Below are positions 9,071-64,000 of a DNA stretch of 64,000 nt, piece by piece. The position numbers and the translations under genes were made by a program. Source of the stretch: Thermomicrobiales bacterium (GTDB lineage: Bacteria; Chloroflexota; Chloroflexia; Thermomicrobiales; UBA6265); assembly GCA_035708745.1 (NCBI GenBank), contig DASTFJ010000158.1, positions 53,641 through 117,640 of the forward strand, read 5' to 3'. Below the pieces are notes generated by a model. That model was not told the origin of the DNA. It was given only the letters and a program-made list of their open reading frames with translations, and made no database searches. How positions within the stretch are numbered: position 1 is the first letter of the stretch; each line of letters starts with the position of its first letter.

Positions 9071-10195
9071 CTATCCGAACTCCTGCAATCGTTGTGCGAC
9101 GATCGCCGCGCTCTCCGTCCAACCGAATTGCCGCGCTCGATCCATGCGTGACGTTCGAACTTCTTCAGCGTTCGACAATGAGAGCGCACGATCGAGCAAT
9201 CCGGCTAGCTTGGCAGGATCGGCAGGGTCGAAGTAGTTTGCAGCGTCACCGCCCACCTCTCGAAACACCGGCAAATTGGCGGCCACAACTGGAGTGCCCG
9301 TCGCGAGCGCTTCGACAACCGGCAGACCGAATCCCTCGTAACGTGATGGATAGACGACGGCTGCCGCTGAGGCCATCAAACCCGGCAGGGCATCATCTGG
9401 CACAAACCCAAGCCGGACGACTCGGCCGCTCAACCCCAGTTCATCCACCCGTCCCAGAATCGACGGTGCATCACAGCCGGCACGGCCAACCAGGGCGAGT
9501 TGAGTAAACGGAGGAAGCATCGCCAATGCCTCGAACAGGACCGGAAGGTTCTTGCGCGGTTCGATCGTTCCGACTGACAGGAAGAACGGCCGCCGGAGGC
9601 CAAATGTGACGAGTGCATCATCGCCGAAGGGCTCCGCCCGATGAAAGTGAGCCGCGGCAGCATTCGGCGCGACGACGACACGATCGGACGGGACCGCGAA
9701 TTGCTGGACGATTTCTTCGCGAATCGCATTGGACACCGTGAATACCGTCGATGCTGCGCGAATGGAACGTTCGACAACCGGCGTCAGAAATCGCGCCAGT
9801 GACTCGGGCGTTTGGGCTTCGGGGTGCAGCCAGGCGAGGTCGTGCACTGTGACATGTGTGCGGGAGTGTTTCGGCGCTGCCGCCGTAAAGTCAGGTGAAT
9901 ACACATCGGTGGGTGTTCCGAGTCGCAGTAATCGATGCAGTGGGACGTTCTGCCGCACGAACAGCCGGTCGACGTTCAGGCGCGAGATGGGCGATCGGCG
10001 CGCCGGCAGACTACTCCAGGGCGGCCGCTCCGGCAGCTGAGGATCGTGCGGAAGATTGTCCTCCGCGTACCAGAGCCGGGTCGTTCCCGCATCGACCATC
10101 GGAATGAGCTCGCGCGTCAGCTCGCGGGCATACCGCCCGATACCGGCACTTTGATTGACCGCCGCGCTGATATCGATCAGCAGATCTCTGCGCAT
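9071..10195 (-). CDS. Glycosyltransferase family 4 (GT-B, GT1-type)
   Basis: N-terminal IDISAAVNQSAGIGRYARELTREL and C-terminal [34 protein letters not shown] (E-X7-E region). Confidence 0.9.
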   Translation of the reverse strand: MRRDLLIDISAAVNQSAGIGRYARELTRELIPMVDAGTTRLWYAEDNLPHDPQLPERPPWSSLPARRSPISRLNVDRLFVRQNVPLHRLLRLGTPTDVYSPDFTAAAPKHSRTHVTVHDLAWLHPEAQTPESLARFLTPVVERSIRAASTVFTVSNAIREEIVQQFAVPSDRVVVAPNAAAAHFHRAEPFGDDALVTFGLRRPFFLSVGTIEPRKNLPVLFEALAMLPPFTQLALVGRAGCDAPSILGRVDELGLSGRVVRLGFVPDDALPGLMASAAAVVYPSRYEGFGLPVVEALATGTPVVAANLPVFREVGGDAANYFDPADPAKLAGLLDRALSLSNAEEVRTSRMDRARQFGWTESAAIVAQRLQEFG

Positions 10196-10198
10196 CAG

Positions 10199-53250: not shown

Positions 53251-53937
53251 GTGACAAATACGTTGACCGGAATGCTGCTTGCGGCGGCGGCAGGTCTCAA
53301 TGCGTTCCTGCCAATTTTGGGCCTGGCGCTGGCGGATCGCTTCACCAGCAAGGTCGACCTGCCGCAGCCGTACAACGTCATTTCGTCGATCGCGGGAATC
53401 GCCATTCTCCTCGTTCTCGTGACGATCGAGCTCATCGCCGACAAAATTCCGCGTATCGACCATCTCAACGATCTGATCAATTCCCCTATCCGCCCCGCCG
53501 CCGGCATGTTCCTGATGATGGCCGCGGTTTCGGGCAAGAACGAAATTCACGAAGTCGTGGCCATGTTCATCGGCTTGCTTCTGGCCGGGGCGGTGCATGT
53601 GTATAAGTCGATCAGCCGCACTCGCATTACCCTGGCAACAAATGGACTCGCCAATCCGATGGTCTCACTTATCGAAGACGGTATCGCCGGCTTGACAACC
53701 TTGTTGGCCATCGCTGTTCCCTGGATCGGCCTGGCGTTTGCCATTCCGGCTGGCATCGGTCTGGGATGGGTCTACCGGAAGACTAGCGGACCAAACGATC
53801 TCTCGACCCAACGTGCTGCCGAGCGACCGGCGGTCATCTCGGAAACCCCAGGGGGACGAAAGCCGAAGCGGGCCGTCATGCGGCGGCCGAAGACCGGCCG
53901 GACCGCGGCGGTGCAGCCGGAAACGCCAGATGCCTAA
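53251..53937 (+). CDS. DUF4126-like integral membrane protein
   Basis: The N-terminal [22 protein letters not shown] and polytopic profile resemble DUF4126. It has a basic, disordered C-terminal tail. GTG start. Confidence 0.6.
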
Positions 53938-55003
53938 GGTCGATTTCAAGGACTATTACGATACGCTCGGGATCAGCCGAACCGCGAATGAGAGCGAGAT
54001 CAAAGCCGCCTTCCGCAAGCTGGCGCGCAAACATCACCCCGATGTCAATCCGGGCGATGCCAGCGCCGAAGAACGCTTCAAAGAGGTCAATGAGGCCTAT
54101 GAAGTGCTCTCCGATGCGGACAAACGCAAACTCTACGATCGCTACGGCGAGGAATGGCAGCGCTACAAGGAAGCCGGCTACACGGGAGATGAGCCACAGA
54201 ATGCCGGAGGCGGCAGACGAACATCGAGCGAGGACTTCGGTACCTGGTTCACGGGAAACAGCGGCGGATTCAGCAGCGCGGATTTCGGTTCGAGCGGCGA
54301 TCATTCCGATTTTTTCGAAACGCTCTTTGGCAGTTTTGGCGGGAATCGCCGCGGGACTGACACCTTTACCCGGGCGACCCCGCGGCCACGACGAGGGCAG
54401 GACATAGACGCCGAAGTCGAGGTGACATTCGACGAAGCATTTCGCGGAACGACTCGCCGCTTCGACGTTCAGGCCGAGGAAGTCTGCCCGACCTGCGGTG
54501 GCACGGGATTGGTGCGGAACGCGATTTGTCCCACCTGCGATGGCGCGGGCTACATACCGCGGATCAAGACGATCGAGGTCAAGATTCCGCCAGGCGTCAC
54601 CAACGGCTCACGCATTCGGGTCGCAGGTCAGGGCGGCGCCGGCGCCGCCGGCGGACCGAATGGCGATGTCTATCTCATCGTCAAGCTGGCCAACGACAAG
54701 CGATTCATCCGAGAAGGCGACAATCTGCGCACGGACATGGAAGTTCCCATGCTAACAGCCCTGCTGGGGGGCAAAGCCCAAGTGACCACGCCCACTGGCC
54801 GGGTCGAGCTCACCATTCCCGCCGAGACGCAGCAGGGCCGCGTCTTCCGGCTTCGTGGCCAAGGTATGCCGAAGCTGAAATCGAAGTCTGGCGAGCGTGG
54901 CGATTTGCTCGCCAGAGCCAACGTCGTGCTCCCGACCAATCTCACCGACCGTGAGAAATCGCTGCTCGAAGAGCTGCGCACCTTGCGTTCCGGAGATCGC
55001 TAA
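53930..55003 (+). CDS. DnaJ/CbpA-like J-domain co-chaperone with a half-size zinc-finger region
   Basis: ATG 53930 gives [40 protein letters not shown] (J domain with HPD). There is a G/F-rich linker and only two CXXCXGXG repeats ([16 protein letters not shown]). The C-terminal substrate-binding domains are present. Overlaps the upstream gene by 8 nt. Confidence 0.88.
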
Positions 55004-55323
55004 TGGCTACCTCGAAACGACAGGAAAGCTTCATTCAGGCGCGGTTCGTCTCGCTGGAGGCGATTTCGACCCGGACTGGCGTCACGACTCGGCGAGTTCG
55101 ATATCTTGAGCGCGCTGGTCTCATCGGACCGGCGGAATCCGATGAGCACATTCGCCTCTACAGCGAAGAAACCATCGAGCGAATCAATACGATCGAGCGG
55201 CTGACCAACGATCTCGGGGTCAATCTTGCCGGGGTCGAGGTCATTCTGAATATGCGAGAGCAAATCATCGCGCTCCGGCAACAGGGCGGCTCGCCGGTCG
55301 AGCAACCCAGAAATCGCGGCTGA
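55003..55323 (+). CDS. MerR-family regulator (HspR/CbpM-like) coupled to the J-protein gene
   Basis: LEAISTRTGVTTRRVRYLERAGLIGP is a MerR HTH. TAATG overlap with the J-protein stop. Confidence 0.8.
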   Translation: MATSKRQESFIQARFVSLEAISTRTGVTTRRVRYLERAGLIGPAESDEHIRLYSEETIERINTIERLTNDLGVNLAGVEVILNMREQIIALRQQGGSPVEQPRNRG

Positions 55324-55366: not shown

Positions 55367-56665
55367 ATGCCAGCAACAATCGTTCTTGGTGGCCAGTGGG
55401 GAGACGAAGGCAAGGGCAAGATCACCGACGCCTTGGCTGGGGAATCGGGCATGGTCGTCCGCGCGAATGGCGGCAGCAATGCCGGACATACCATCTCCAC
55501 CGCGCAAGGCGTGTTCAAAATGCACCTTGTGCCATCCGGCATTCTCTCGCCCGGCACTACCTGTGTTATCGGGGCCGGGGTGGTGATCGATCCGATCCAG
55601 CTCGCCAGCGAGCTGGCCGACTTGCGGCAACGAGGAATCGACACGTCCTCGCTGGTCATTTCGGACCGCGCGCATGTCGTGCTTCCCTTTCATTCCGAGA
55701 TCGATCGCGGCGAAGAGCAGCTGCGTGGCGAAGCTCCGATTGGCACGACCCTGCGGGGCATTGGACCGGCATATGCCGACAAAGTCTCGCGCCGGGGTAT
55801 GCGCATGGCGGATTTGTGCGACGAACGTTCGGTCAAACCGCGCCTCGAGCGCGATTTCGAAGCGCGCAATCGATTGCTGGAGGGGTATTACGGCAGTGAG
55901 CCGGTCGACGCGGACGCCACCACCCAGGAGCTGCTCGAAGCGGCGGAGGTCCTCTATCCGTTTGTCGGCCATGCCGAAGAAATCGTGCAGAACGCGCTCG
56001 ATGCCGGGGAGCGGGTCATCGTCGAGTGTGCCCAGGGCGCCATGCTCGATATCGACTACGGCAGTTACCCCTTCGTCACATCGTCCTCACCGACCGCGGC
56101 CGGAGCGTGCCAGGGCGCTGGCATCGCACCCAACCAAATCGAACGCGTCATCGGGGTGTTCAAGGCGTACAGCTCGCGAGTGGGCGGCGGCCCCTTCCCC
56201 ACCGAGCTCTTCGACGAAACCGGCAACCGGATTCGGGAGCGCGGAAACGAATACGGCACCACCACCGGTCGTGCGCGGCGCGTTGGCTGGTTCGATGCCG
56301 TCGCCGCCCGGCGCGTGACCCGGCTGAATGGCGTGACCGATATCGCGCTCACCTTGCTCGACGTGCTCGACGCCTTCGATCCGATTCAGATCGGCGTCGG
56401 CTATGTGTTGGACGATCGGCCCATTTCGTTCGTCCCCACCATTTCGGCCGACTACGACCGGGTGTCACCGGTGCTTTCCCCTGCCGATGGCTGGCTGGAA
56501 GACATTACGTCGATACGTTCCGGCGATGACCTGCCAGGAAACGCTCGCGCCTATATCGCCCGCATAGGCGAATTGGCGGGGGCTCCTGTTTCCATGGTCG
56601 GGGTTGGACCCGATCGCGAACAGCTCGTTTCGGTCAACGCATTCGCGAGCACTGCCGCTCGCTAG
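55367..56665 (+). CDS. purA: Adenylosuccinate synthetase
   Basis: [15 protein letters not shown]-loop, [11 protein letters not shown] and [12 protein letters not shown]. Confidence 0.96.
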
Positions 56666-56679
56666 AAAGCGAACATTCC

Positions 56680-57147
56680 ATGCTCGACGCCGAACAGCCA
56701 ACGATGCTTGATTCGATTGCAATTCAGAAGATTCTGCCGCATCGATTTCCCTTTCTGCTCGTCGATCGCATTGTCGAGCTGGAGGTCGGCAAACGCGCGG
56801 TCGGCCTGAAAAACGTCACCATCAATGAGCATTTCTTCCAGGGGCATTTTCCGCAGTATCCGGTCATGCCCGGCGTGCTGATCGTCGAAGCGCTAGCGCA
56901 AACGGGCGGCATTGCGCTCGGCACCATGGACGAATACAAAGGCCGGATCGCCTTTTTCGCCGGTATCGACAATGTGCGTTTCAAACGACAAGTCAAGCCG
57001 GGCGATACCCTCCGACTCGAAGTCGAGCTCACGCAACTGCGGCGGTCGATCGGCACCGCCTCGGCGCTGGCCACGGTCGATGGCGAGGTCGCCTGCAAGG
57101 GCGACATCATGTTCGCGCTCGGTCCGCTCATGTCGGAGCTCACCTGA
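56680..57147 (+). CDS. fabZ: 3-hydroxyacyl-ACP dehydratase
   Basis: [38 protein letters not shown] hot-dog signature. Confidence 0.95.
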
Positions 57148-57224
57148 CGAGCGCTTCGCGAGTCATAGGGATCGATGGTAGCCGGGCAACAGTTGCGCGG
57201 CTCACCGGCACCGAGCGCTATTCG

Positions 57225-58298
57225 GTGGAGCTCCTTTCGGCGCTGGCCGCCCTTGACCCACCTGAAACCATCAAGGTCTATCTCAATGCGTCCGAGCGGC
57301 CGCCGGCTCTGCGTATCCCCGGCACCGCGGTTACGATTCCCGGGCCGCGCTTTTGGACCTTGCGGAATCTGGCGGCGGAGATGCGACGCGATCCACCCGA
57401 TCTCTTGTTCGTTCCATCGCATGTCGTCCCGCCGGCCCATCCCACCGCGGTGGTGACGATCCACGATCTCGGCTACCTGGTCGAGCCGGAATCTCACCTG
57501 GCTATCCATCGCAAGCAGCTGGAATGGACGACTCGTTGGAATGCCCGCGCGGCCGCCGGACTCATCGCCGTCTCCGAAGCCACCAAGCGCGACCTCGTGG
57601 AGTCACTCGGTGTCGATCCCAGTCGCATTCGAGTTATCCACCACGGAGTGAGCGAAGCACTGGCGCCCGCGACCGAGCACGCGATTGCCGCCGTTCGCGA
57701 TCAGTACGCTATCAGCCCACGGGCGATTCTGGCGGTCGGATCCATCCAGCCGCGGAAGAACCTCGTCCGCTTGATCCAGGCATTCGAGCGGCTGGCGCCG
57801 CTCGACGAAACGCTGCAGCTCGTCCTGTGCGGCGCTCCCGGATGGAAAGACGAGCAGATCCTGCGACGGGGCGCCGCATCGCCATTCCATGACCGAATCC
57901 GGCACATTGGCTATGTTCCCGATGTCGAGCTCGCTGCACTCTATTCATCATCCGCCGTTTTGGCATTTCCGTCATTGTACGAAGGGTTCGGGATGCCGGC
58001 GCTGGAAGCGATGGCGTGCGGTACGCCGGTCGTCGCCGCCAACCGGTCGTCGCTGCCGGAAGTTTGCGGGGACGCCGCTGTGCTGGTCGATCCGTTCGAT
58101 GCCGAGGCGATTGCGTCCGGCCTCGCTCGAGTGCTGGACGACAATGCGCTTCGCCAGGAGCTGATCGAGCGCGGACGCAGGCGAGCGCGCATGTTTCGCT
58201 GGCGGAGCTGCGCGGAACAAACCCTCGCGTTCTTGCGTTCCATTGGCGACAATGTGCAGCGGGAAAGAAGTCGCGTCTCCGAACGAGGTAGGCAATGA
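57225..58298 (+). CDS. Glycosyltransferase family 4 (true start probably upstream of the first canonical start codon)
   Basis: [34 protein letters not shown]. The same frame stays open and homologous upstream (SRVIGIDGSRATVARLTGTERYS from 57156) but contains no ATG/GTG/TTG there. Confidence 0.85.
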
Positions 58299-58819
58299 GA
58301 TCGTCGGGAAAAATGATTGGGCTGGGAATGATCGCCGCAGGGGCGATCCTGGGGATCGCTGGCGGGGCGTGGCTCATCTCCGGCATGAACGAAGACAAGC
58401 TCGAGCAATCGGGCGCCATCTTCGGGCTCATCCTGCTGCTTGGAGTGGTCGTCATTCCGTTGGTAGGCGGGGGCGTCTTCTTCACGCGCAAAGGGGCGAT
58501 GGAAGAGCAACAGCTCGCGAAAATCAACGAGCAGCGCCGTTTGCTCGATATAGTTTCTACTCGTGGTCAGGTTTCGATTGCCGATCTGGTGCTGGAGTTG
58601 AAGTCGAGCCGGGACGAGGTCGAAAAGAACCTGAACGAGCTGGTTGGCCGCGGGCTGTTCAGCGGGTATGTCGATTGGAACAAGGGCATGCTCTATTCCG
58701 TGGATGCATCGAAGCTGCAAGGAGCGCAATTTTGTCCGAACTGCGGTGGCAAACTGGAACTTGCTGGCAAAGGCGTGGTGACTTGCCCCTATTGCGGAGC
58801 GCAGATTTTCCTTTCGTGA
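58295..58819 (+). CDS. Two-TM protein with winged-helix-like segment and C-terminal zinc ribbon
   Basis: Two TM helices, a helical segment ([40 protein letters not shown]), and [23 protein letters not shown] overlap with the GT4 stop. No family assigned. Confidence 0.6.
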
Positions 58820-58844
58820 TCGAACAAACGAAGGAGTCGAAACA

Positions 58845-59948
58845 ATGAGCTGGTTTCGGGAAACGATGTTGAAGGCCGAAGCGAAGGCCGGCCAACTCGA
58901 AAGCTGGGTGAAAGACAGCGTGTCGGGTGCAGCGGATCGCACCCGCGAAACGGCCGGCAACACCGTCGACCGCACCAACGAATTCGTGGGCGATTATCAG
59001 GACACGACCGATTCGATGTTGCGGCGTATTCCGGGATACTCGGGGTACAAGGACAAAGAGCAAGCGCGCGATTCCGACCGCGCCCTTCGCAACGACATCG
59101 CCCAGCAGCTCGACCAAAACGCGACGCGCGTCGAGGCGATGCAGCGAGCGGCCGCCAATGACCGCAACGTCGCACGGGTCACTGAGCTCGATCCCGTCGT
59201 GCAGGGGTTCCGGAACGCCGCCAACGTCGTGCGCTCACTCAGTTACGGCTATGGCGGTCTTTTCTCAGACAAACCCGTCGATGAGGTGGCGCTCGCGCAG
59301 CTGCGTTTGTTCGATGAAGGATTGCTCGTCAAGGTCACCGCGCTCACGACAGCTGTGGAGGGGCTCGAAGCCGGCTCCTCCGGTGATGCGGGCGTCATTG
59401 CGAAGGAAATTGCGAAGTTCAAAGCGGGACTCGATCTGCGCAACAGCGTCATCACCGAGGGACGCCCGGCCAAGCCAGTGAAGATCCTCGAACCGTCAGC
59501 CGCCACAGAGAGGGCATTCGCTGAAGGAGAGCAAACGACGGCAGAGCCGGTCGCGCTGCCCGATGTCAGCCTGGGCGACGCGATGTCGATTCTCGGCGAC
59601 GATCATCTGGTCGAAGCGTTGATCGACGTAGACACTGGAACGAGCATCGAGCGGTTCATCCGGTTGGACAACAAGCCGCAAATGTGGCTCTGGGTCTCCA
59701 CCGATCCGACCCACACGCCGCACCGGTTGCTCGGGGCAGACGAACCCGCCGGCGTCGACTGGTCGGAAACGGCCGGTAAAGCAAAGATCTCCGTGCCAGA
59801 CGAGCGCACCCGATCCGGTCCGGCCATCATCCGTACCGGTCGGACTGCCGATTCGGGTGTGGTTCAGCTCGACATCGACAGAGTGATCCAGAACTTCACC
59901 GCCTCAGACATCCACGCGGACGATATCGAAACCTATCAGGCCAAGTGA
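58845..59948 (+). CDS. Hypothetical protein (helical N-half, beta-rich C-half), Psp-cluster partner
   Basis: 367-aa ORF with no TM. The C-terminal half (..[20 protein letters not shown]..) is faintly reminiscent of DUF4178-type domains, which I cannot verify by eye. Confidence 0.55.
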
Positions 59949-60037
59949 GATAATCATTTCGGGCAGGAAATGCCGGGCGCTTGCCCAGGTTCGCGAGAAT
60001 CGGACACCACTCGGCGATAAAACTGGAGGAAACATTC

Positions 60038-60745
60038 ATGGGAGTCATCGATCGCGTGTCACGTCTGGTGCGCGCCAACGTCAACGATCTACTCGATCAA
60101 GCCGAAGATCCTGAGAAGATGATCGATCAGATCATCCGGGATATGGAATCGAATATCACCGATGCCCGCAGGCAGGTGGCGGCCATGATCGCGCAGGAGA
60201 AAGAGCTCGAATACGACCGGGACGAAACCCAGAAGCTGGCCGATGCCTGGGGCGACAAAGCCAGGCGCGCGGTCGAAGCCGGAAAAGACGATCTGGCTCG
60301 CGAGGCGCTCCGCCGCCAGAAGGACTACGCCGACAATGCCGCGCTCTACGATCAGCAGTTCACGGCCCAGAAGGACGCAGTCAGCAAACTGAAATCACAG
60401 CTCTCCCAACTGGAAGCCAAATACGATCAGGTCCGCAGCCAGCGCGATACGCTCGTGGCGCGTCAGAAGCGGGCCCGCGCGCAGGCGCGGGTCGCCGGAG
60501 CGCTCAACCCAGCCGACTTCTCCTCCATGGACCCGACGTCGGATCTCGATCGCATGGAACGCAAGATCCGCGGTCAGGAAGCGCAGACGGCTGCCATGCT
60601 GGAGATGCAGGACGACTCGATCGACGCACAGTTCGCCGAGCTCGACTACGACTCCGACATCGAAGACCGCCTGGCGGCCCTCAAGGAATCCGTGAAGCCG
60701 TCGGCCGAGATCCCGGCCAAGGTCGATACCGGCGCCAACGAATAG
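60038..60745 (+). CDS. pspA: PspA/IM30 (Vipp1) family membrane-stress protein
   Basis: ATG 60038 with GGAGGA upstream gives MGVIDRVSRLVRANVNDLLDQAEDPEKMIDQIIRDME.., the canonical PspA N-terminus, followed by a long coiled coil. Confidence 0.92.
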   Translation: MGVIDRVSRLVRANVNDLLDQAEDPEKMIDQIIRDMESNITDARRQVAAMIAQEKELEYDRDETQKLADAWGDKARRAVEAGKDDLAREALRRQKDYADNAALYDQQFTAQKDAVSKLKSQLSQLEAKYDQVRSQRDTLVARQKRARAQARVAGALNPADFSSMDPTSDLDRMERKIRGQEAQTAAMLEMQDDSIDAQFAELDYDSDIEDRLAALKESVKPSAEIPAKVDTGANE

Positions 60746-60787
60746 GCAAGCTTCGGCCTCACGGTTTCGTCAACAGGAGAATCCAGA

Positions 60788-61768
60788 TTGGCAGTTCTTG
60801 ATCTGATCCAATGGACCGACGAGCGTTCGGACGAGATCGTGAGGCGTGTCCCCGAAACCGGCTCCGGAGAATTCCGTCTCGGTTCGCAGCTGGTCGTTCG
60901 GGAGAACCAGGCGGCGGTATTCGTCCGCGATGGCAAGGCACTCGACGCCTTCGGTCCCGGCCGGCATACGCTGTCGACCAACAACATCCCGCTTCTCGGT
61001 GGCCTGATCGGCGCGGCCTTCGGCGGAAAGTCGCCGTTTACGGCCGAAGTGTTCTTCGTTTCCACCCGCGAGTTCACCGGGTTGAAGTGGGGCACGCCTC
61101 AGCCGATGACCTTCAAAGACTCGCAGCTCGGTATGGTCCGGCTGCGGGCATTCGGCACGTTCTCGATCCGGGTGACGAACCCGACTTTGTTCGTGAACTA
61201 CATCGTCGGAACACGTGGCGGCTACTCGATTGCCAATATCGAGGATTTCCTCCGCTCGATCATCATCAATAATTTCAACGACATTCTCGGCGATCTGTCG
61301 ACCACCCTCACCGATATCCCGGGCATGATGCTGGATCTCTCCTCAACGGCGCGGGCATCGTTGACGGACGATTTCGACCGAATCGGGCTGCAGATCGTCA
61401 CCTTCCAGGTCGAGGCCATTACCCCGCCGGACGAGGTGACGAAGCTCATCGACCAGCGCTCGGGTATGGGCGCCATCGGCGACATGAGCGCGTATACGCA
61501 ATTCCAGGCTGCACAGGCAATGCGCGATGCGGCCCAGAATCCAGGAGGCGGCGGAGCCGCCGCCACGGGCGTGGGACTCGGGGCAGGTATGGCGATGGGT
61601 CAGGCAATGGCCGATGCTATCAATCAAGGCAAGAGTGGCGGTAAAGCGCAGGGAGGAGCGCCGGCAGCGGGCTCGTCGGGCCAGGTCAATTTCTGTCCCA
61701 ATTGCGGCTCTCCAGTGGCGCCTGGCGCGAAATTCTGCACCAATTGCGGATTCAAGCTCGCAGACTAA
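60788..61768 (+). CDS. SPFH/Band-7 domain protein with C-terminal zinc ribbon (COG4260 / YdjI-like)
   Basis: TTG start with AGGAGA upstream. LVVRENQAAVFVRDGKALDAFGPGRHTL.. is an SPFH fold. A Gly/Ala-rich linker leads to FCPNCGSPVAPGAKFCTNCG. Confidence 0.8.
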   Translation: MAVLDLIQWTDERSDEIVRRVPETGSGEFRLGSQLVVRENQAAVFVRDGKALDAFGPGRHTLSTNNIPLLGGLIGAAFGGKSPFTAEVFFVSTREFTGLKWGTPQPMTFKDSQLGMVRLRAFGTFSIRVTNPTLFVNYIVGTRGGYSIANIEDFLRSIIINNFNDILGDLSTTLTDIPGMMLDLSSTARASLTDDFDRIGLQIVTFQVEAITPPDEVTKLIDQRSGMGAIGDMSAYTQFQAAQAMRDAAQNPGGGGAAATGVGLGAGMAMGQAMADAINQGKSGGKAQGGAPAAGSSGQVNFCPNCGSPVAPGAKFCTNCGFKLAD

Positions 61769-61810
61769 AACCGCGACCGGATCTCGGTTGTACATCAGGC
61801 ACAGCATGCG

Positions 61811-61843
61811 AAAACGGGAGGCTTCGAGAGGCCTCCCGTTTTT
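61811..61843 (+). terminator. Rho-independent (bidirectional-type) terminator after the Psp cluster
   Basis: AAAACGGGAGGC-TTCGAGAG-GCCTCCCGTTTT forms a perfect 12-bp stem flanked by A- and T-runs. Confidence 0.85.
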
Positions 61844-62042
61844 CGTTCGAGCTGGCTGCTCGAGCGCTCCCGGCCGGCCAAGTGTCCCGCCGGCGGATTC
61901 GAGACAAAACTTCAGTATTTATGCAGAGAATTGCCGTCTCCGAACGCCTCGAAACGCTCGAATTTCGCGTCAGAAAATGGTAGAATTGAGGGTCGATTTG
62001 GACTGCTTTCTACTCTGCAAAGGACCCTTGATTCGTGGATAT

Positions 62043-64000
62043 TGGAAACGTTCGCGTCGCGAATATCGATACCGAAGTGCGACAGTCATATCTCGACTAC
62101 GCAATGAGCGTGATCGTCCAGCGCGCGCTTCCAGATGCCCGCGATGGATTGAAGCCGGTACACCGGCGTGTGCTGTTTGCCATGTGGGAAATGAGCATGC
62201 GCTCGACCTCTCGCTACCGCAAGAGCGCAGGTACTGTCGGCGAGGTGATGAAAAACTTTCACCCCCATGGAGACAGCGCGATCTATGACACGCTCGTCCG
62301 CATGGCCCAGCCATTCAACTTGCGCTATCCCTTGATCGATGGGCAAGGAAACTTTGGATCGGTCGATGGCGATGGCGCAGCTGCCATGCGGTACACCGAG
62401 TCACGTCTTGCTCAAATTGCTGACGAGCTGCTGCTGGATATCGACAAGAACACCGTCGACTTCGTTCCAAACTACGACGCAACCATGACGCAGCCGAGTG
62501 TGCTGCCTGGCCGGCTTCCCAACCTCTTGCTCAATGGCTCCGCCGGCATCGCCGTCGGTATGGCGACCAATATACCCCCGCATAATCTCAATGAGCTGTG
62601 CGACGCTATCACGCATCTGATCGATAATCCGGACGCCACGATCGACGACCTGATGCAGTTCGTACCGGGCCCCGACTTCCCAACCGGCGGAACGATTCTC
62701 GGAACCGAAGGCATCCGCGCCGCCTATGCCACGGGCCGCGGTCGCGTCGTCATTCGAGCCAAAGCGTTCGTCGAGGAATCGGCCCGCGGCAACCGCCTCC
62801 AGATCATCGTGACCGAGCTGCCATATCAGGTGAACAAGGCGCTGTTGCTGGAGCGCATCGCCGAGCTGGTCAAGGATGGCAAGCTCGACGGCATCAGCGA
62901 CCTGCGCGATGAGTCCGATCGCACCGGAATGCGCATGGTGATCGAGCTGAAGCGCGATGCTCAATCGCTGAAAGTGCTCAACAACCTTTTCAAGCACACA
63001 TCGCTGCAGCAGTCGTTCGGCGTCAACATGCTGGCGCTGGTGGAACGCGGCACACAACCACGCATTCTCAGCCTCCGGCGCGCGCTGCAGGAGTACATCG
63101 GCCACCGGCAGGAAGTCACCACCCGCCGGGCCGAATACGAGTTGGAGCGAGCTCGCCGCCGCGCCCATATCCTCGAAGGATTGCTCAAGGCGCTCGATTC
63201 GATCGACGAGATCATTGCCACCATTCGCGCTTCGTCGACGACCGAAGACGCGCGCAACAATCTCATCGGGACCTTCGGCTTCACCGAGATTCAGGCGAAC
63301 GCCATTCTGGACATGCGCCTGGCTCGCCTGGCGGGCCTGGAGCGCCAGCGAATCGAGGACGAATACAAAGAGATCATGGCAACTATTGCCGAGCTGGAGG
63401 CGCTGCTCGCTGATCCAAACAAGGTGCTGGCGTCCATCAAGCAAGATCTCGCCGCGCTGAAGGAGAAATATGGCGACGAGCGCCGGACTGTCATCAAGGA
63501 CATCTCGTCCGACCTCAACATCGAGGATTTGATTCCTGAAGTCGATGTGCTGGTCACCATGACCAATCGCGGCTATGTCAAGCGAATTCCCGCTGATGTC
63601 TATCGCACGCAGCGGCGCGGCGGCAAGGGCGTGACCGGGTTGACGATGCGCGATGAAGACGCGGTACAGCACATTCTGGCCGCCAATACGATGGACTCGC
63701 TCCTGGTCTTCACGAACCGGGGCAAGGTCTATCAGGTCAAGGTTCACGAGCTCCCCGACGCCGGGCGCACCGCGAAGGGACTGCCGATCGTCAATTTCAT
63801 CAGCATGCTGCCCGATGAAACCGTGACGACCTTCCTGAATATTCGCGACTTCTCGCCGGCCAACTATCTCTTTTTCACTACCCGAATGGGCACGGTGAAG
63901 CGCGTGTCGCTCGATCAATTCAAGTCGGTTCGTTCGAATGGTTTGATTGCCATTGGTCTCGACGAGGGCGACGAGCTGGTTTGGGTTCGCGTGAGCTCGG
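62043..64000 (+). CDS. gyrA: DNA gyrase subunit A (3' end outside window)
   Basis: GTG 62043 has TGA in frame 6 nt upstream. Translation reads ..EVRQSYLDYAMSVIVQRALPDARDGLKPVHRRVLFAM..HPHGDSAIYDTLVRMAQPF..AAMRYTE... Open to the window end, so it is missing from the ORF track. A candidate extended -10 (TGGTAGAAT) lies at 61978-61986. Confidence 0.95.

What the first reader, a model, noticed from the sequence alone, without database searches (positions are those of the whole stretch)
58295..61768. Four-gene PspA / SPFH-Zn-ribbon membrane-stress module with two uncharacterised partners
The co-directional genes are a two-TM wH-like plus Zn-ribbon protein, a 367-aa soluble protein, PspA/IM30, and an SPFH protein with a C-terminal Zn ribbon. 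A strong terminator at 61811-61843 closes the cluster. PspA together with a COG4260-type SPFH protein and a Zn-ribbon membrane protein recalls the Bacillus subtilis pspA-ydjGHI operon, where YdjI is reported to recruit PspA to the membrane. Order and partner content differ here. The 367-aa protein has no family I can assign.
Basis: partly seen in the sequence, partly recalled or inferred. Interest (0 to 1): 0.55.

Follow-up and report, generated by a model that had tools for sequence, protein, structure and literature searches.

The report
PspA–SPFH membrane-stress module, Chloroflexota variant
This is a conserved four-gene membrane-maintenance cluster of Thermomicrobiales bacteria, in which the membrane-repair protein PspA appears to have been inserted into an older, widespread and undescribed gene pair: a soluble SPFH scaffold plus a small helical partner protein.

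Summary
Four co-directional genes lie at 58295-61768, closed by a strong hairpin terminator.

- **g1:** two transmembrane (TM) helices, a PCI/MarR-like winged helix (wH) and a Zn ribbon (ZnR).
- **g2 (367 aa):** now assignable. It has an N-terminal four-helix domain with no Pfam model, distantly related to NCBIfam LIMLP_15305, and a divergent C-terminal DUF4178 domain.
- **g3:** a bona fide PspA/IM30.
- **g4:** a TM-less Band_7_1 SPFH protein with a Gly/Ala-rich linker and a Zn ribbon, the architecture described for YdjI/SamI.

The order g1-g2-pspA-SPFH recurs in about 50 Thermomicrobiales/Chloroflexia genomes, with or without the upstream GT4 gene. GT4 is therefore not part of the module.

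In Anaerolineae, Ardenticatenia, Caldilineae, Aminicenantales and Actinomycetota, the short form of g2 sits directly upstream of Band_7_1 without PspA. It does so in at least six different genomic contexts, often with g1 and DUF2207. The ancient core is thus the g2N–SPFH pair, and PspA is a lineage-specific insertion.

The likely mechanism is inferred by analogy to B. subtilis PspA-YdjGHI:
- g1 anchors the soluble SPFH oligomer at the membrane.
- g2 binds SPFH through its N-domain.
- g2 may recruit PspA through its DUF4178 domain.

This is a new variant of a known kind and moderately interesting.

The parts
58295..58819 (+). g1: 174-aa membrane protein. It has two TM helices (about residues 5-32 and 38-62), a juxtamembrane helix running into a PCI/MarR-like winged helix (about 75-135), and a C-terminal CPxCG...CPYCG Zn ribbon (146-170).
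   Evidence: ORF. Zn ribbon Pfam hits and weak PCI/MarR/FeoC wH hits. KD19 TM segments. AF2 model with pLDDT 82.6. Foldseek top hits are PCI wH domains of COP9/proteasome lid and MarR (prob ~1, local rmsd 1.5-2.8 A). There are 1131 homologues, all unnamed or mis-named S27AE/RpoP. It is 58% identical in a locus where g2 is only 36% identical.
58845..59948 (+). g2: 367-aa soluble two-domain protein (see the next two rows). It has a lineage-specific N-terminal helical extension (residues 1-50) and a disordered linker (about 208-237).
   Evidence: ORF. No TM. AF2 model with pLDDT 78.5 and linker below 50. 84 word-indexed homologues. 1465 50%-identity cluster representatives at E<=1e-3.
59007..59459 (+). 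g2 N-domain (residues ~55-205): a four-helix domain with invariant motifs PGYxGYxxKExRRDxDRxxR, SYGYxGLF and FD. This is the part that travels with Band_7_1 SPFH genes across phyla.
   Evidence: Alignments A1/A3. NCBIfam NF047596 LIMLP_15305_fam at E 2.7e-5 for the window protein and 1e-10 to 5e-14 over the full model for short forms, below the cutoff. No Pfam hit. No PDB relative. Neighbourhoods.
59556..59945 (+). g2 C-domain (residues ~238-367): a beta-rich divergent DUF4178 domain (GDAxSILGDDhhVDAxIDV...R.hR...WLWV).
   Evidence: pLDDT above 90 with eleven strands. PF13785 is matched by 5 of 27 full-length relatives and by 10 of 31 C-domains, best 1.6e-15. Six two-domain relatives pass the Pfam gathering score at 28-55 bits over the whole model. 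Those six are matched by the HMM of the window's C-domain family at 1e-10 to 6e-21.
59926..59954 (+). Promoter-like site (TCGAAA-17-GATAAT with TG) straddling the g2 stop codon, upstream of pspA.
   Evidence: It is the only sigma-70-like match in 56500-62600, against 1.5 expected by chance. TGAGATAAT is invariant in three relatives whose surrounding spacer has diverged. Function is not shown.
60038..60745 (+). g3: PspA/IM30 (ESCRT-III superfamily), 235 aa from the ATG, with an amphipathic N-terminal helix.
   Evidence: PF04012 at E 3e-52 over positions 1-216 of 220. TIGR02977 at 9.5e-41, below the equivalog cutoff. Best solved relative is Synechocystis PspA sll0617 (8qfv) at E 3e-41, full length. 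Hydrophobic moment (muH) 0.54 for residues 2-22.
60788..61768 (+). g4: soluble Band_7_1 SPFH protein, 326 aa. It has a Gly/Ala/Met-rich low-complexity linker (~250-300) and a C-terminal Zn ribbon (302-324), which is the YdjI/SamI-type architecture.
   Evidence: PF13421 at E 2e-61, PF01145 at 8e-15, Zn_Ribbon_1 at 6e-9. No TM. No close solved structure.
61808..61850 (+). Intrinsic terminator closing the cluster.
   Evidence: 17-bp hairpin followed by a U-tract. Fold z = -4.8, and 0 of 200 shuffles fold as well. Sequence.

Best explanation
The region encodes a sub-membrane envelope-maintenance module built in two layers.

**Layer 1, ancient and widespread.** A soluble Band_7_1 SPFH scaffold (g4) is paired with a small helical partner (the N-domain of g2). 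It is frequently accompanied by a 2TM-wH-ZnR membrane protein (g1).

**Layer 2, specific to Thermomicrobiales/Chloroflexia.** A pspA gene is inserted between g2 and the SPFH gene. In most of these genomes g2 also carries a C-terminal DUF4178 domain.

**Proposed mechanism.**
1. g1 is the only integral membrane protein. Its cytoplasmic PCI-like winged helix and Zn ribbon tether the TM-less SPFH oligomer to the inner face of the membrane. YdjG/YdjH (SamG/SamH) play this role for YdjI (SamI) in B. subtilis.
2. The g2 N-domain binds or regulates the SPFH assembly.
3. The SPFH platform, possibly through the DUF4178 domain of g2, nucleates or positions PspA. PspA then polymerises as an ESCRT-III-like coat on stressed membrane.
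4. pspA probably also has its own promoter inside the cluster, so the effector could be induced independently of the platform.

**What is shown and what is inferred.**
- Shown: domain identities, topology, gene order, and conservation with and without PspA or GT4.
- Inferred: all physical contacts, the direction of recruitment, and the inducing signal.
For: **Domain identities:**

**Only g1 has TM helices:**

**Gene order.** g1-g2-pspA-SPFH is identical in 45 of 45 Thermomicrobiales/Chloroflexia loci with enough flank. g2 identity falls as low as 28%.

**Independence from GT4:**

**The g2N-SPFH dyad without PspA.**
- It appears in 15 further loci from Anaerolineae, Ardenticatenia, Caldilineae, Aminicenantales and Actinomycetota, plus four metagenome contigs.
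- These represent at least six unrelated flanking contexts, with 4-34 nt gaps.
- g1 is adjacent in 9 of these, often with DUF2207.

**Experimental precedent.**
- YdjI is soluble, needs the membrane proteins YdjG/H for localisation, and is required for PspA foci (PMC8581546).
- SamG/H/I act as a stress-sensing complex for which PspA is dispensable (bioRxiv 10.64898/2026.02.06.704340). This matches a PspA-less core.

**Independent contextual links.**
- DUF4178 occurs in CesT/Tir-PspA (yjfIJ-type) operons (PMC11237479).
- wH proteins are encoded upstream of ESCRT-III/PspA genes, and SPFH-ZnR proteins occur in archaeal ESCRT loci (PMC10936438).

**pspA promoter.** A conserved -10-like TGAGATAAT lies ahead of pspA.
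Against: - No interaction was tested, and co-folding is not available here.
- The DUF4178-PspA correlation is 45 loci with both and 18 with neither (15 of these keep SPFH), against 4 exceptions. It is largely one clade and so may reflect a single evolutionary event.
- The exceptions run both ways. L061 and L070 have PspA with a g2 that carries a disordered tail instead of DUF4178. L034 and L060 have DUF4178 without an adjacent PspA.
- Much of the Thermomicrobiales conservation sits in a generally syntenic region (dnaJ-hspR-purA-fabZ...gyrA). Adjacency within that clade alone is therefore weak evidence.
- g1 is missing from about half of the PspA-less dyads, so it cannot be an obligatory anchor.
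- Thermoflexus has the g2 short form with no SPFH nearby.
- g1 and g2 do not match the published descriptions of YdjG/H, so the analogy is functional only.
- The g1 wH could instead bind DNA.
Confidence: 0.6

Rival explanations
1. g1 is a membrane-tethered transcription factor (wH plus Zn ribbon). It senses membrane state and regulates the cluster or other genes. g2 and SPFH modulate it, and PspA is its regulated output. Under this reading the module is primarily a signalling device rather than a recruitment scaffold.
For: - The wH fold has MarR-family structural matches and weak MarR_2/DeoR/Lrs14 profile hits.
- YdjG's Zn ribbon has been suggested to act in regulation (PMC9239133).
- Loss of SamI causes global transcriptional changes through SamG/H (bioRxiv 10.64898/2026.02.06.704340).
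- SPFH partners in other lineages carry a C-terminal HTH_17 instead of a Zn ribbon.
Against: - The best structural matches are PCI-type wH domains, which mediate protein-protein assembly (PMC10936438).
- The wH begins directly after TM2, so it is held at the membrane with no obvious release mechanism.
- No conserved operator-like repeat was looked for or seen.
- g1 is absent from many dyads.
Confidence: 0.2
2. The four genes are neighbours only because this chromosomal region is syntenic in Chloroflexota. g1 and g2 would then be functionally unrelated to PspA/SPFH, or would belong with the upstream GT4/fabZ envelope-biosynthesis genes.
For: - The whole dnaJ-hspR-purA-fabZ-...-gyrA order is conserved in relatives.
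- In this window the g1 start overlaps the GT4 stop (ATGA), which suggests co-transcription with GT4.
Against: - GT4 is absent or distant in 27 of 45 loci, while g1-g2-pspA-SPFH stays intact.
- g2N-SPFH adjacency, often with g1, persists in at least six unrelated genomic contexts and in other phyla.
- The genes share a strand, are separated by short gaps, and have a single terminator after the last gene.
Confidence: 0.08
3. The cluster is an anti-phage or other conflict system that uses an SPFH/PspA membrane effector.
For: - PspA was first defined by phage-induced stress.
- GT4-conflict (PF20706) gives a secondary hit on the upstream glycosyltransferase.
- A weak PADLOC hit to a CARF_TM model falls on the g1 wH (E 4.6e-4).
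Against: - There are no meaningful PADLOC hits for g2, PspA or SPFH.
- The cluster sits in a housekeeping context with vertical, syntenic inheritance and normal G+C content.
- No nuclease, NTPase or other effector/sensor typical of defence islands is present.
Confidence: 0.03

Closest known systems
Bacillus subtilis pspA-ydjGHI (pspA-samGHI) operon
   Same: - PspA is encoded together with a TM-less Band_7_1 SPFH protein that has a low-complexity linker and a C-terminal Zn ribbon.
- A Zn-ribbon-bearing integral membrane protein and one further partner complete the four genes.
- The genes are co-directional.
- In B. subtilis the membrane proteins recruit the SPFH protein, which recruits PspA (PMC8581546; bioRxiv 10.64898/2026.02.06.704340).
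   Different: - The gene order differs. pspA is third here, not first.
- The membrane partner is 2TM-wH-ZnR rather than ZnR-ZnR-NTF2-like-TM (YdjG).
- The fourth protein is a soluble helical-plus-DUF4178 protein rather than a TPM-domain membrane protein (YdjH) (PMC11237479).
- The phylum is Chloroflexota, not Firmicutes.
- No direct sequence comparison with YdjG/H/I was possible here.
CesT/Tir-PspA (E. coli yjfIJ-type) operons containing a DUF4178 protein
   Same: A PspA-family gene is linked to a predicted intracellular beta-rich DUF4178 protein (PMC11237479).
   Different: - There is no CesT/Tir (DUF2170) protein, spermine-synthase/7TM protein, DUF350 protein or lipoprotein here.
- DUF4178 is fused to a helical domain that is an SPFH partner.
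g2N (LIMLP_15305-like)-Band_7_1 dyad of Anaerolineae, Ardenticatenia and other lineages
   Same: It has the same N-domain family and the same SPFH family, in the same order and close spacing, often with the same g1 family upstream.
   Different: - These loci lack PspA and the DUF4178 domain.
- The SPFH C-terminus is HTH_17, multiple Zn ribbons or SHOCT-like instead of a single Zn ribbon.
- DUF2207 is often adjacent.
Archaeal ESCRT loci with a wH protein upstream of ESCRT-III and an SPFH-coiled-coil-ZnR protein (Makarova et al. 2024, PMC10936438)
   Same: The loci combine a wH protein, an ESCRT-III-superfamily protein and an SPFH-Zn-ribbon protein. PCI-like wH variants are noted there as well.
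   Different: - There is no Vps4 ATPase and no adaptin-appendage proteins.
- This is a bacterial PspA rather than an archaeal ESCRT-III.
- The wH here is membrane-anchored.
- Homology of the wH proteins was not tested.

Membership tests
PspA/IM30 (PF04012; ESCRT-III superfamily) | Full-length match to the PspA_IM30 profile above the curated threshold | tested here: met
   177.7 bits against a cutoff of 33.9, covering profile positions 1-216 of 220.
PspA/IM30 (PF04012; ESCRT-III superfamily) | Sequence relationship to PspA/Vipp1 proteins with solved ESCRT-III-like structures | tested here: met
   Synechocystis PspA sll0617 (8qfv, 7o3w) at E 3e-41 to 8e-40 over residues 1-222; Vipp1 at 5e-39.
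PspA/IM30 (PF04012; ESCRT-III superfamily) | Amphipathic N-terminal helix for membrane binding | tested here: met
   Residues 2-22 have hydrophobic moment 0.54 and mean hydrophobicity -0.11. Actual membrane binding is not testable here.
Proteobacterial PspA sensu stricto (TIGR02977 / pspFABC system) | Equivalog score, plus PspB/PspC/PspF partners | tested here: not met
   139.9 bits against a cutoff of 242.95. None of the three neighbouring products is PspB, PspC or PspF.
Band_7_1 SPFH, YdjI/SamI type | Band_7_1 SPFH domain | tested here: met
   PF13421 at 207.7 bits against a cutoff of 24, covering positions 9-210 of 211.
Band_7_1 SPFH, YdjI/SamI type | No transmembrane anchor; low-complexity region and a C-terminal Zn ribbon | tested here: met
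   Maximum KD19 is 1.14, so no TM. A Gly/Ala-rich stretch spans about 250-300, and Zn_Ribbon_1 covers 302-324 at E 6e-9. This matches the description of YdjI in PMC8581546.
Band_7_1 SPFH, YdjI/SamI type | Required for membrane recruitment of PspA | not testable with these tools
   Needs localisation experiments.
pspA-ydjGHI/samGHI operon type | YdjG-type partner (two N-terminal Zn ribbons, an NTF2-like domain, a C-terminal TM) | tested here: not met
   g1 has two N-terminal TM helices, a wH and a single C-terminal Zn ribbon. The YdjG architecture is taken from PMC11237479. No direct sequence comparison was made.
pspA-ydjGHI/samGHI operon type | YdjH-type partner (membrane TPM-domain protein) | tested here: not met
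   No TPM_phosphatase hit on g1 or g2 at E<=0.1. g2 has no TM.
DUF4178 (PF13785) | Match to the PF13785 profile | tested here: inconclusive
   The window protein itself gives no hit at E<=1. However, 10 of 31 aligned C-domains hit, best 1.6e-15. Six relatives with the same architecture pass the gathering score over the whole model. Those six are matched by the window-family C-domain HMM at 1e-10 to 6e-21. Homology by transitivity is strong, but direct membership is not shown.
LIMLP_15305 family (NCBIfam NF047596, Leptospira equivalog) | Score above the equivalog cutoff (210 bits) | tested here: not met
   24.1 bits for g2 and 41-53 bits for short forms over nearly the whole 175-position model. 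This is a homologous domain, not a member of the equivalog.
CesT/Tir-PspA-DUF4178 (yjfIJ-type) operons | CesT/Tir (DUF2170) protein adjacent to PspA | tested here: not met
   No such hit among the four products or the two upstream genes.
PCI / MarR-like winged helix (g1 cytoplasmic domain) | H-b-H-H-b-b winged-helix fold | tested here: met
   The AF2 secondary-structure order fits. Foldseek gives prob 0.97-1.0 to PCI subunits and MarR regulators, with local rmsd 1.5-2.8 A over 58-67 residues but E of only 2e-3 to 5e-2. Pfam PCI scores E 1.2e-3, below its cutoff.

The most novel reading that the evidence does not exclude
g2 is a dedicated two-headed adaptor that physically couples an SPFH membrane cage to the bacterial ESCRT-III homologue PspA.

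- Its N-domain defines a large, unmodelled family of obligate Band_7_1 partners. The family has at least 1465 clusters at 50% identity and reaches from Chloroflexota to Actinomycetota, Acidobacteriota and, distantly, Leptospira.
- DUF4178 is a PspA-binding domain, which would also explain its presence in yjfIJ-type PspA operons.
- Together with the membrane-anchored PCI-like wH protein g1, the module would be a bacterial counterpart of the wH / ESCRT-III / SPFH combinations seen in archaeal ESCRT loci.
Probability: 0.25. Interest if true: 0.7.

Novelty: new variant of a known kind. Interest (0 to 1): 0.5.

Why it matters
PspA/Vipp1 proteins are the bacterial ESCRT-III homologues. How they are targeted to damaged membrane outside proteobacteria is still largely unknown. 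The only dissected SPFH-dependent route is B. subtilis YdjGHI/SamGHI.

This locus shows that the SPFH-PspA coupling exists in a distant phylum with different, non-homologous accessory proteins.

It also shows that the SPFH protein has an older partner set, the g2 N-domain and often g1 and DUF2207, that works without PspA. That agrees with recent B. subtilis data in which the SPFH complex has a signalling role for which PspA is dispensable.

The analysis gives three uncharacterised families a concrete, testable context:
- the LIMLP_15305-like helical domain;
- DUF4178;
- the 2TM-wH-ZnR protein that is currently mis-named S27AE/RpoP in databases.

It also suggests a specific role for DUF4178 that could be tested in E. 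coli-type yjf operons.

Tried and rejected
1. **A real g2-PspA fusion.** The 596-aa protein P0073 is a frameshift artefact. The junction is an Arg/Pro-rich out-of-frame stretch. It is not Rosetta-stone evidence.
2. **g2 N-domain as a diverged PspA/ESCRT-III.** hhalign of A3 against a PspA alignment gives probability 0.3%. The Foldseek CdvB hits are insignificant.
3. **Structural annotation of g2 by Foldseek against the PDB.** Nothing falls below E 1e-3. The top hit, APPL BAR-PH, has TM-score 0.13. Sequence-profile searches of the PDB with either domain found only designed coiled coils and noise.
4. **Longer g2 relatives (350-450 aa) as carriers of another domain.** Their tails are low-complexity and disordered, with no Pfam hit.
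5. **Defence-system membership.** PADLOC gives only two marginal hits.
6. **GT4 as part of the operon.** Rejected on its variable presence.
7. **Second copies, or DUF2207 or YdjG-like genes, elsewhere in the window.** None were found.
8. **Literature on LIMLP_15305.** It is mentioned only as a flanking gene of an sRNA, so it is uninformative.
9. **Leptospira and other distant contexts.** These could not be examined. The single genome-collection scan returned only the best 80 of 538 loci, and proteins from the representatives search cannot be looked up.

Full report
**1. What is there**

The window comes from a Thermomicrobiales (Chloroflexota) metagenome-assembled genome. g1 and g2 are 100% identical to hypothetical proteins VFP05_09795 and VFP05_09800.

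- g1: 58295-58819.
- g2: 58845-59948.
- pspA: 60038-60745. The ORF opens at 59981, but the ATG at 60038 has a GGAGG 8 nt upstream.
- SPFH gene: 60788-61768.

Gaps between them are 25, 89 and 42 nt, and each start has a Shine-Dalgarno-like motif.

A 17-bp G+C-rich hairpin with a U-tract at 61808-61850 follows the last gene. The fold has z = -4.8, and no shuffle folds as well. The consensus scan had missed it.

gyrA begins at 62035. Upstream lie dnaJ, a MerR/HspR-like gene, purA, fabZ and a GT4 glycosyltransferase. The GT4 stop codon overlaps the g1 start (ATGA).

**2. The four products**

*g3* is an unambiguous PspA/IM30.
- PF04012 scores E 3e-52 over the whole profile.
- Its closest solved relative is Synechocystis PspA sll0617, E 3e-41.
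- Its N-terminal helix is amphipathic.
- It scores below the proteobacterial PspA and LiaH equivalog cutoffs.

*g4* is a Band_7_1 SPFH protein (PF13421, E 2e-61).
- It has no TM segment, a Gly/Ala/Met-rich linker and a C-terminal Zn ribbon.
- This is the architecture reported for B. subtilis YdjI/SamI (PMC8581546; PMC11237479).

*g1* has two TM helices.
- The second continues into a cytoplasmic helix, then a winged helix, then a CPxCG...CPYCG Zn ribbon (AF2 pLDDT 82.6; KD scan).
- Foldseek places the wH with the PCI domains of COP9 signalosome and proteasome-lid subunits and with MarR regulators. Probability is about 1 and local rmsd is 1.5-2.8 A, although E-values are only 2e-3 to 5e-2.
- This agrees with sub-threshold PCI/MarR/FeoC/DeoR profile hits.
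- The family has more than 1100 members. All are unnamed, or mis-named "ribosomal protein S27AE" or "RpoP" because of the Zn ribbon.

- Residues ~55-205 form a four-helix domain with invariant PGYxGYxxKExRRDxDRxxR, SYGYxGLF and FD motifs.
- This N-domain has no Pfam model and no solved relative.
- It matches the Leptospira NCBIfam model LIMLP_15305 across the whole model, far below the equivalog cutoff. E is 2.7e-5 for g2 and 1e-10 to 5e-14 for short forms.
- Residues ~238-367 form a confidently predicted beta domain (pLDDT above 90).
- The window sequence itself does not hit any Pfam model. However, 10 of 31 aligned C-domains match DUF4178 (best 1.6e-15).
- Six full-length relatives with the same two-domain layout pass the DUF4178 gathering score over the whole model.
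- Those six are found by the HMM of the window's own C-domain family at 1e-10 to 6e-21.
- I therefore treat the C-domain as a divergent DUF4178.

An exhaustive profile search finds 1465 cluster representatives (50% identity) at E<=1e-3. They fall into three architectures:
- the N-domain alone (~170 aa);
- the N-domain plus a disordered low-complexity tail (350-450 aa);
- the N-domain plus DUF4178 (~320-370 aa).

**3. Conservation and what it says**

A scan of species-representative genomes found 538 loci encoding a g2 relative, of which 80 were returned. I tabulated their neighbours with phmmer and domain HMMs.

*Within Thermomicrobiales/Chloroflexia*
- Every locus with enough flank (45 of 45) has the order g1-g2(N+DUF4178)-pspA-SPFH. 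g2 identity falls as low as 28%.
- The upstream gene varies. GT4 is adjacent in 18 loci. fabZ is directly adjacent with no GT4 in 20. GT4 is more than 1 kb away in 7.
- The whole dnaJ...gyrA region is syntenic in this clade. Conservation inside the clade alone is therefore weak evidence of function.

*Outside that clade, which is the more informative result*
- Fifteen genome loci come from Anaerolineae, Ardenticatenia, Caldilineae/Litorilinea, an Aminicenantales MAG and an Actinomycetota MAG.
- In these, a ~172-aa N-domain-only g2 sits 4-34 nt upstream of a Band_7_1 gene with no PspA.
- Four long metagenome contigs show the same pair between unrelated genes, fructose-bisphosphate aldolase and plsX.
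- I count at least six different flanking contexts.
- g1 is immediately upstream in nine of these loci, often preceded by a DUF2207 membrane protein. In the actinobacterial locus, g1 and DUF2207 lie just downstream.
- The SPFH C-terminus varies between one Zn ribbon, two or three Zn ribbons, an HTH_17 domain and a SHOCT-like tail.

The evolutionary core is therefore g2N + Band_7_1, frequently with g1. pspA was inserted between the two in one Chloroflexota lineage.

*DUF4178 and PspA*
- Their presence coincides in 45 loci. Both are absent in 18 loci, 15 of which keep SPFH.
- Exceptions run in both directions. L061 and L070 have PspA with a disordered-tail g2. L034 and L060 have DUF4178 without an adjacent PspA.
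- Most positives belong to one clade, so the correlation may be a single event.
- Thermoflexus has an orphan short g2 beside Tad-pilus-like genes.

**4. Mechanism**

The experimental anchor is B. subtilis.
- YdjI is soluble and needs the membrane proteins YdjG and YdjH to reach the membrane. It is itself needed for PspA foci (PMC8581546).
- A 2026 preprint renames the genes samGHI. It reports that SamG/H/I form a stress-sensing complex whose developmental phenotype does not need PspA (bioRxiv 10.64898/2026.02.06.704340).
- That fits a PspA-independent SPFH core with PspA as an added effector, which is what the phyletic pattern here shows.

By analogy I propose the following.
- g1 is the only membrane protein. 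It tethers the SPFH oligomer through its PCI-like wH and Zn ribbon.
- The g2 N-domain binds or regulates the SPFH assembly. This is the strongest inference, because it rests on multi-context gene pairing.
- PspA is recruited to this platform, possibly through the DUF4178 domain.
- Independent support for the DUF4178-PspA link is that DUF4178 proteins occur in CesT/Tir-PspA (yjfIJ-type) operons (PMC11237479).
- A promoter-like site spans the g2 stop codon. Its TGAGATAAT is invariant in three relatives while the rest of the spacer has diverged. This suggests pspA can also be transcribed on its own.
- All contacts, the direction of recruitment and the inducing signal are inferences.

**5. Rivals**
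- A membrane-tethered wH-ZnR regulator role for g1 is not excluded. It is supported by the MarR-like matches, the HTH_17 tails on SPFH elsewhere and the SamGH signalling data. The PCI-type matches and the direct fusion of the wH to TM2 favour a protein-protein role.
- Pure synteny, or membership of a GT4 operon, is contradicted.
- A defence-system reading has no support.

**6. Relation to what is known, and novelty**
- The PspA + Band-7-ZnR coupling is described for Firmicutes (PMC11237479). The wH / ESCRT-III / SPFH-ZnR combinations are described for archaeal ESCRT loci (PMC10936438).
- The locus shares the two defining proteins of the ydj/sam operon. It fails the YdjG-type and YdjH-type partner tests and has a different order.
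- It is best filed as a new variant of the known PspA-SPFH kind, not as a ydjGHI operon.
- I did not find the following described in the papers read:
  - the g2N-Band_7_1 dyad and its breadth;
  - the fusion of that domain to DUF4178;
  - the 2TM-wH-ZnR partner.
- Interest is moderate. The general biology is expected. The locus nevertheless yields concrete, cheap tests for three uncharacterised families and for how SPFH scaffolds connect to bacterial ESCRT-III.

Noticed in passing
L081:4100-10158 (Actinomycetota MAG CAWDOM010000013.1): The g2-short/SPFH pair is flanked by several related genes. These are a 408-aa protein with two N-terminal Zn ribbons and a C-terminal TM (which by architecture recalls B. 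subtilis YdjG), a 205-aa Zn-ribbon protein, a DUF2207 membrane protein and a g1 homologue. This could link the Firmicutes ydj operon and the Chloroflexota module. The YdjG likeness was not tested by sequence.
   Followed up: partly
L074:3407-5350; also L075, L079, L080, L069, L072, L061: A DUF2207 (N- and C-domain) membrane protein with a Gly-rich tail recurs immediately upstream of g1 in PspA-less loci. It is duplicated in L061. It is absent from the window. It may be a further component of the SPFH core.
   Followed up: partly
L074:6480-7544, L084-L087, L058:6574-7641, L061:7686-8756: The C-terminal module of the Band_7_1 protein is swapped between lineages. Variants seen are a single Zn ribbon, two or three Zn ribbons, an HTH_17 (excisionase-type) domain and a SHOCT-like tail.
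   Followed up: no
L003:4133-5923 (protein P0073): A database protein of 596 aa, annotated 'phage shock protein A', looks like a g2-PspA fusion. It is actually a frameshifted read-through with an Arg/Pro-rich out-of-frame junction.
   Followed up: yes
window 58295-58298: The g1 start codon overlaps the GT4 stop codon (ATGA). In relatives that have GT4, the approximate gap between the end of the GT4 match and the start of the g1 match is 46-209 nt. The coupling therefore seems specific to this lineage.
   Followed up: partly
window 53738-55323: A dnaJ gene is followed directly by a MerR-family (HspR-like) gene, then purA and fabZ. The whole dnaJ-hspR-purA-fabZ...gyrA order is conserved in distant Chloroflexota relatives (L001, L003, L007).
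   Followed up: no
window 62401-63918 (- strand): A 505-aa ORF lies antisense to gyrA (which starts at 62035 on the + strand and runs off the window). It is almost certainly a shadow ORF of a high-G+C gene. Similar antisense ORFs shadow the SPFH gene in several loci.
   Followed up: no
window 9074-10198 (- strand): A second GT4-type glycosyltransferase paralogue (phmmer E 1.8e-36 to the GT4 at 57225-58298).
   Followed up: no
L051-L053, L064 (Thermoflexus MAGs): The short g2 form stands alone, with no SPFH, g1 or PspA within 6 kb. It is followed after about 500 nt by TadE/TadG-like pilus assembly ORFs.
   Followed up: partly
window 58845-58997 (g2 residues 1-50): An N-terminal helical extension ([15 protein letters not shown]... 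with DxTRE/VDRTNE-like repeats) is present only in the closest relatives. Two members gave weak YtxH-like hits (E 0.012). Its role is unknown.
   Followed up: no
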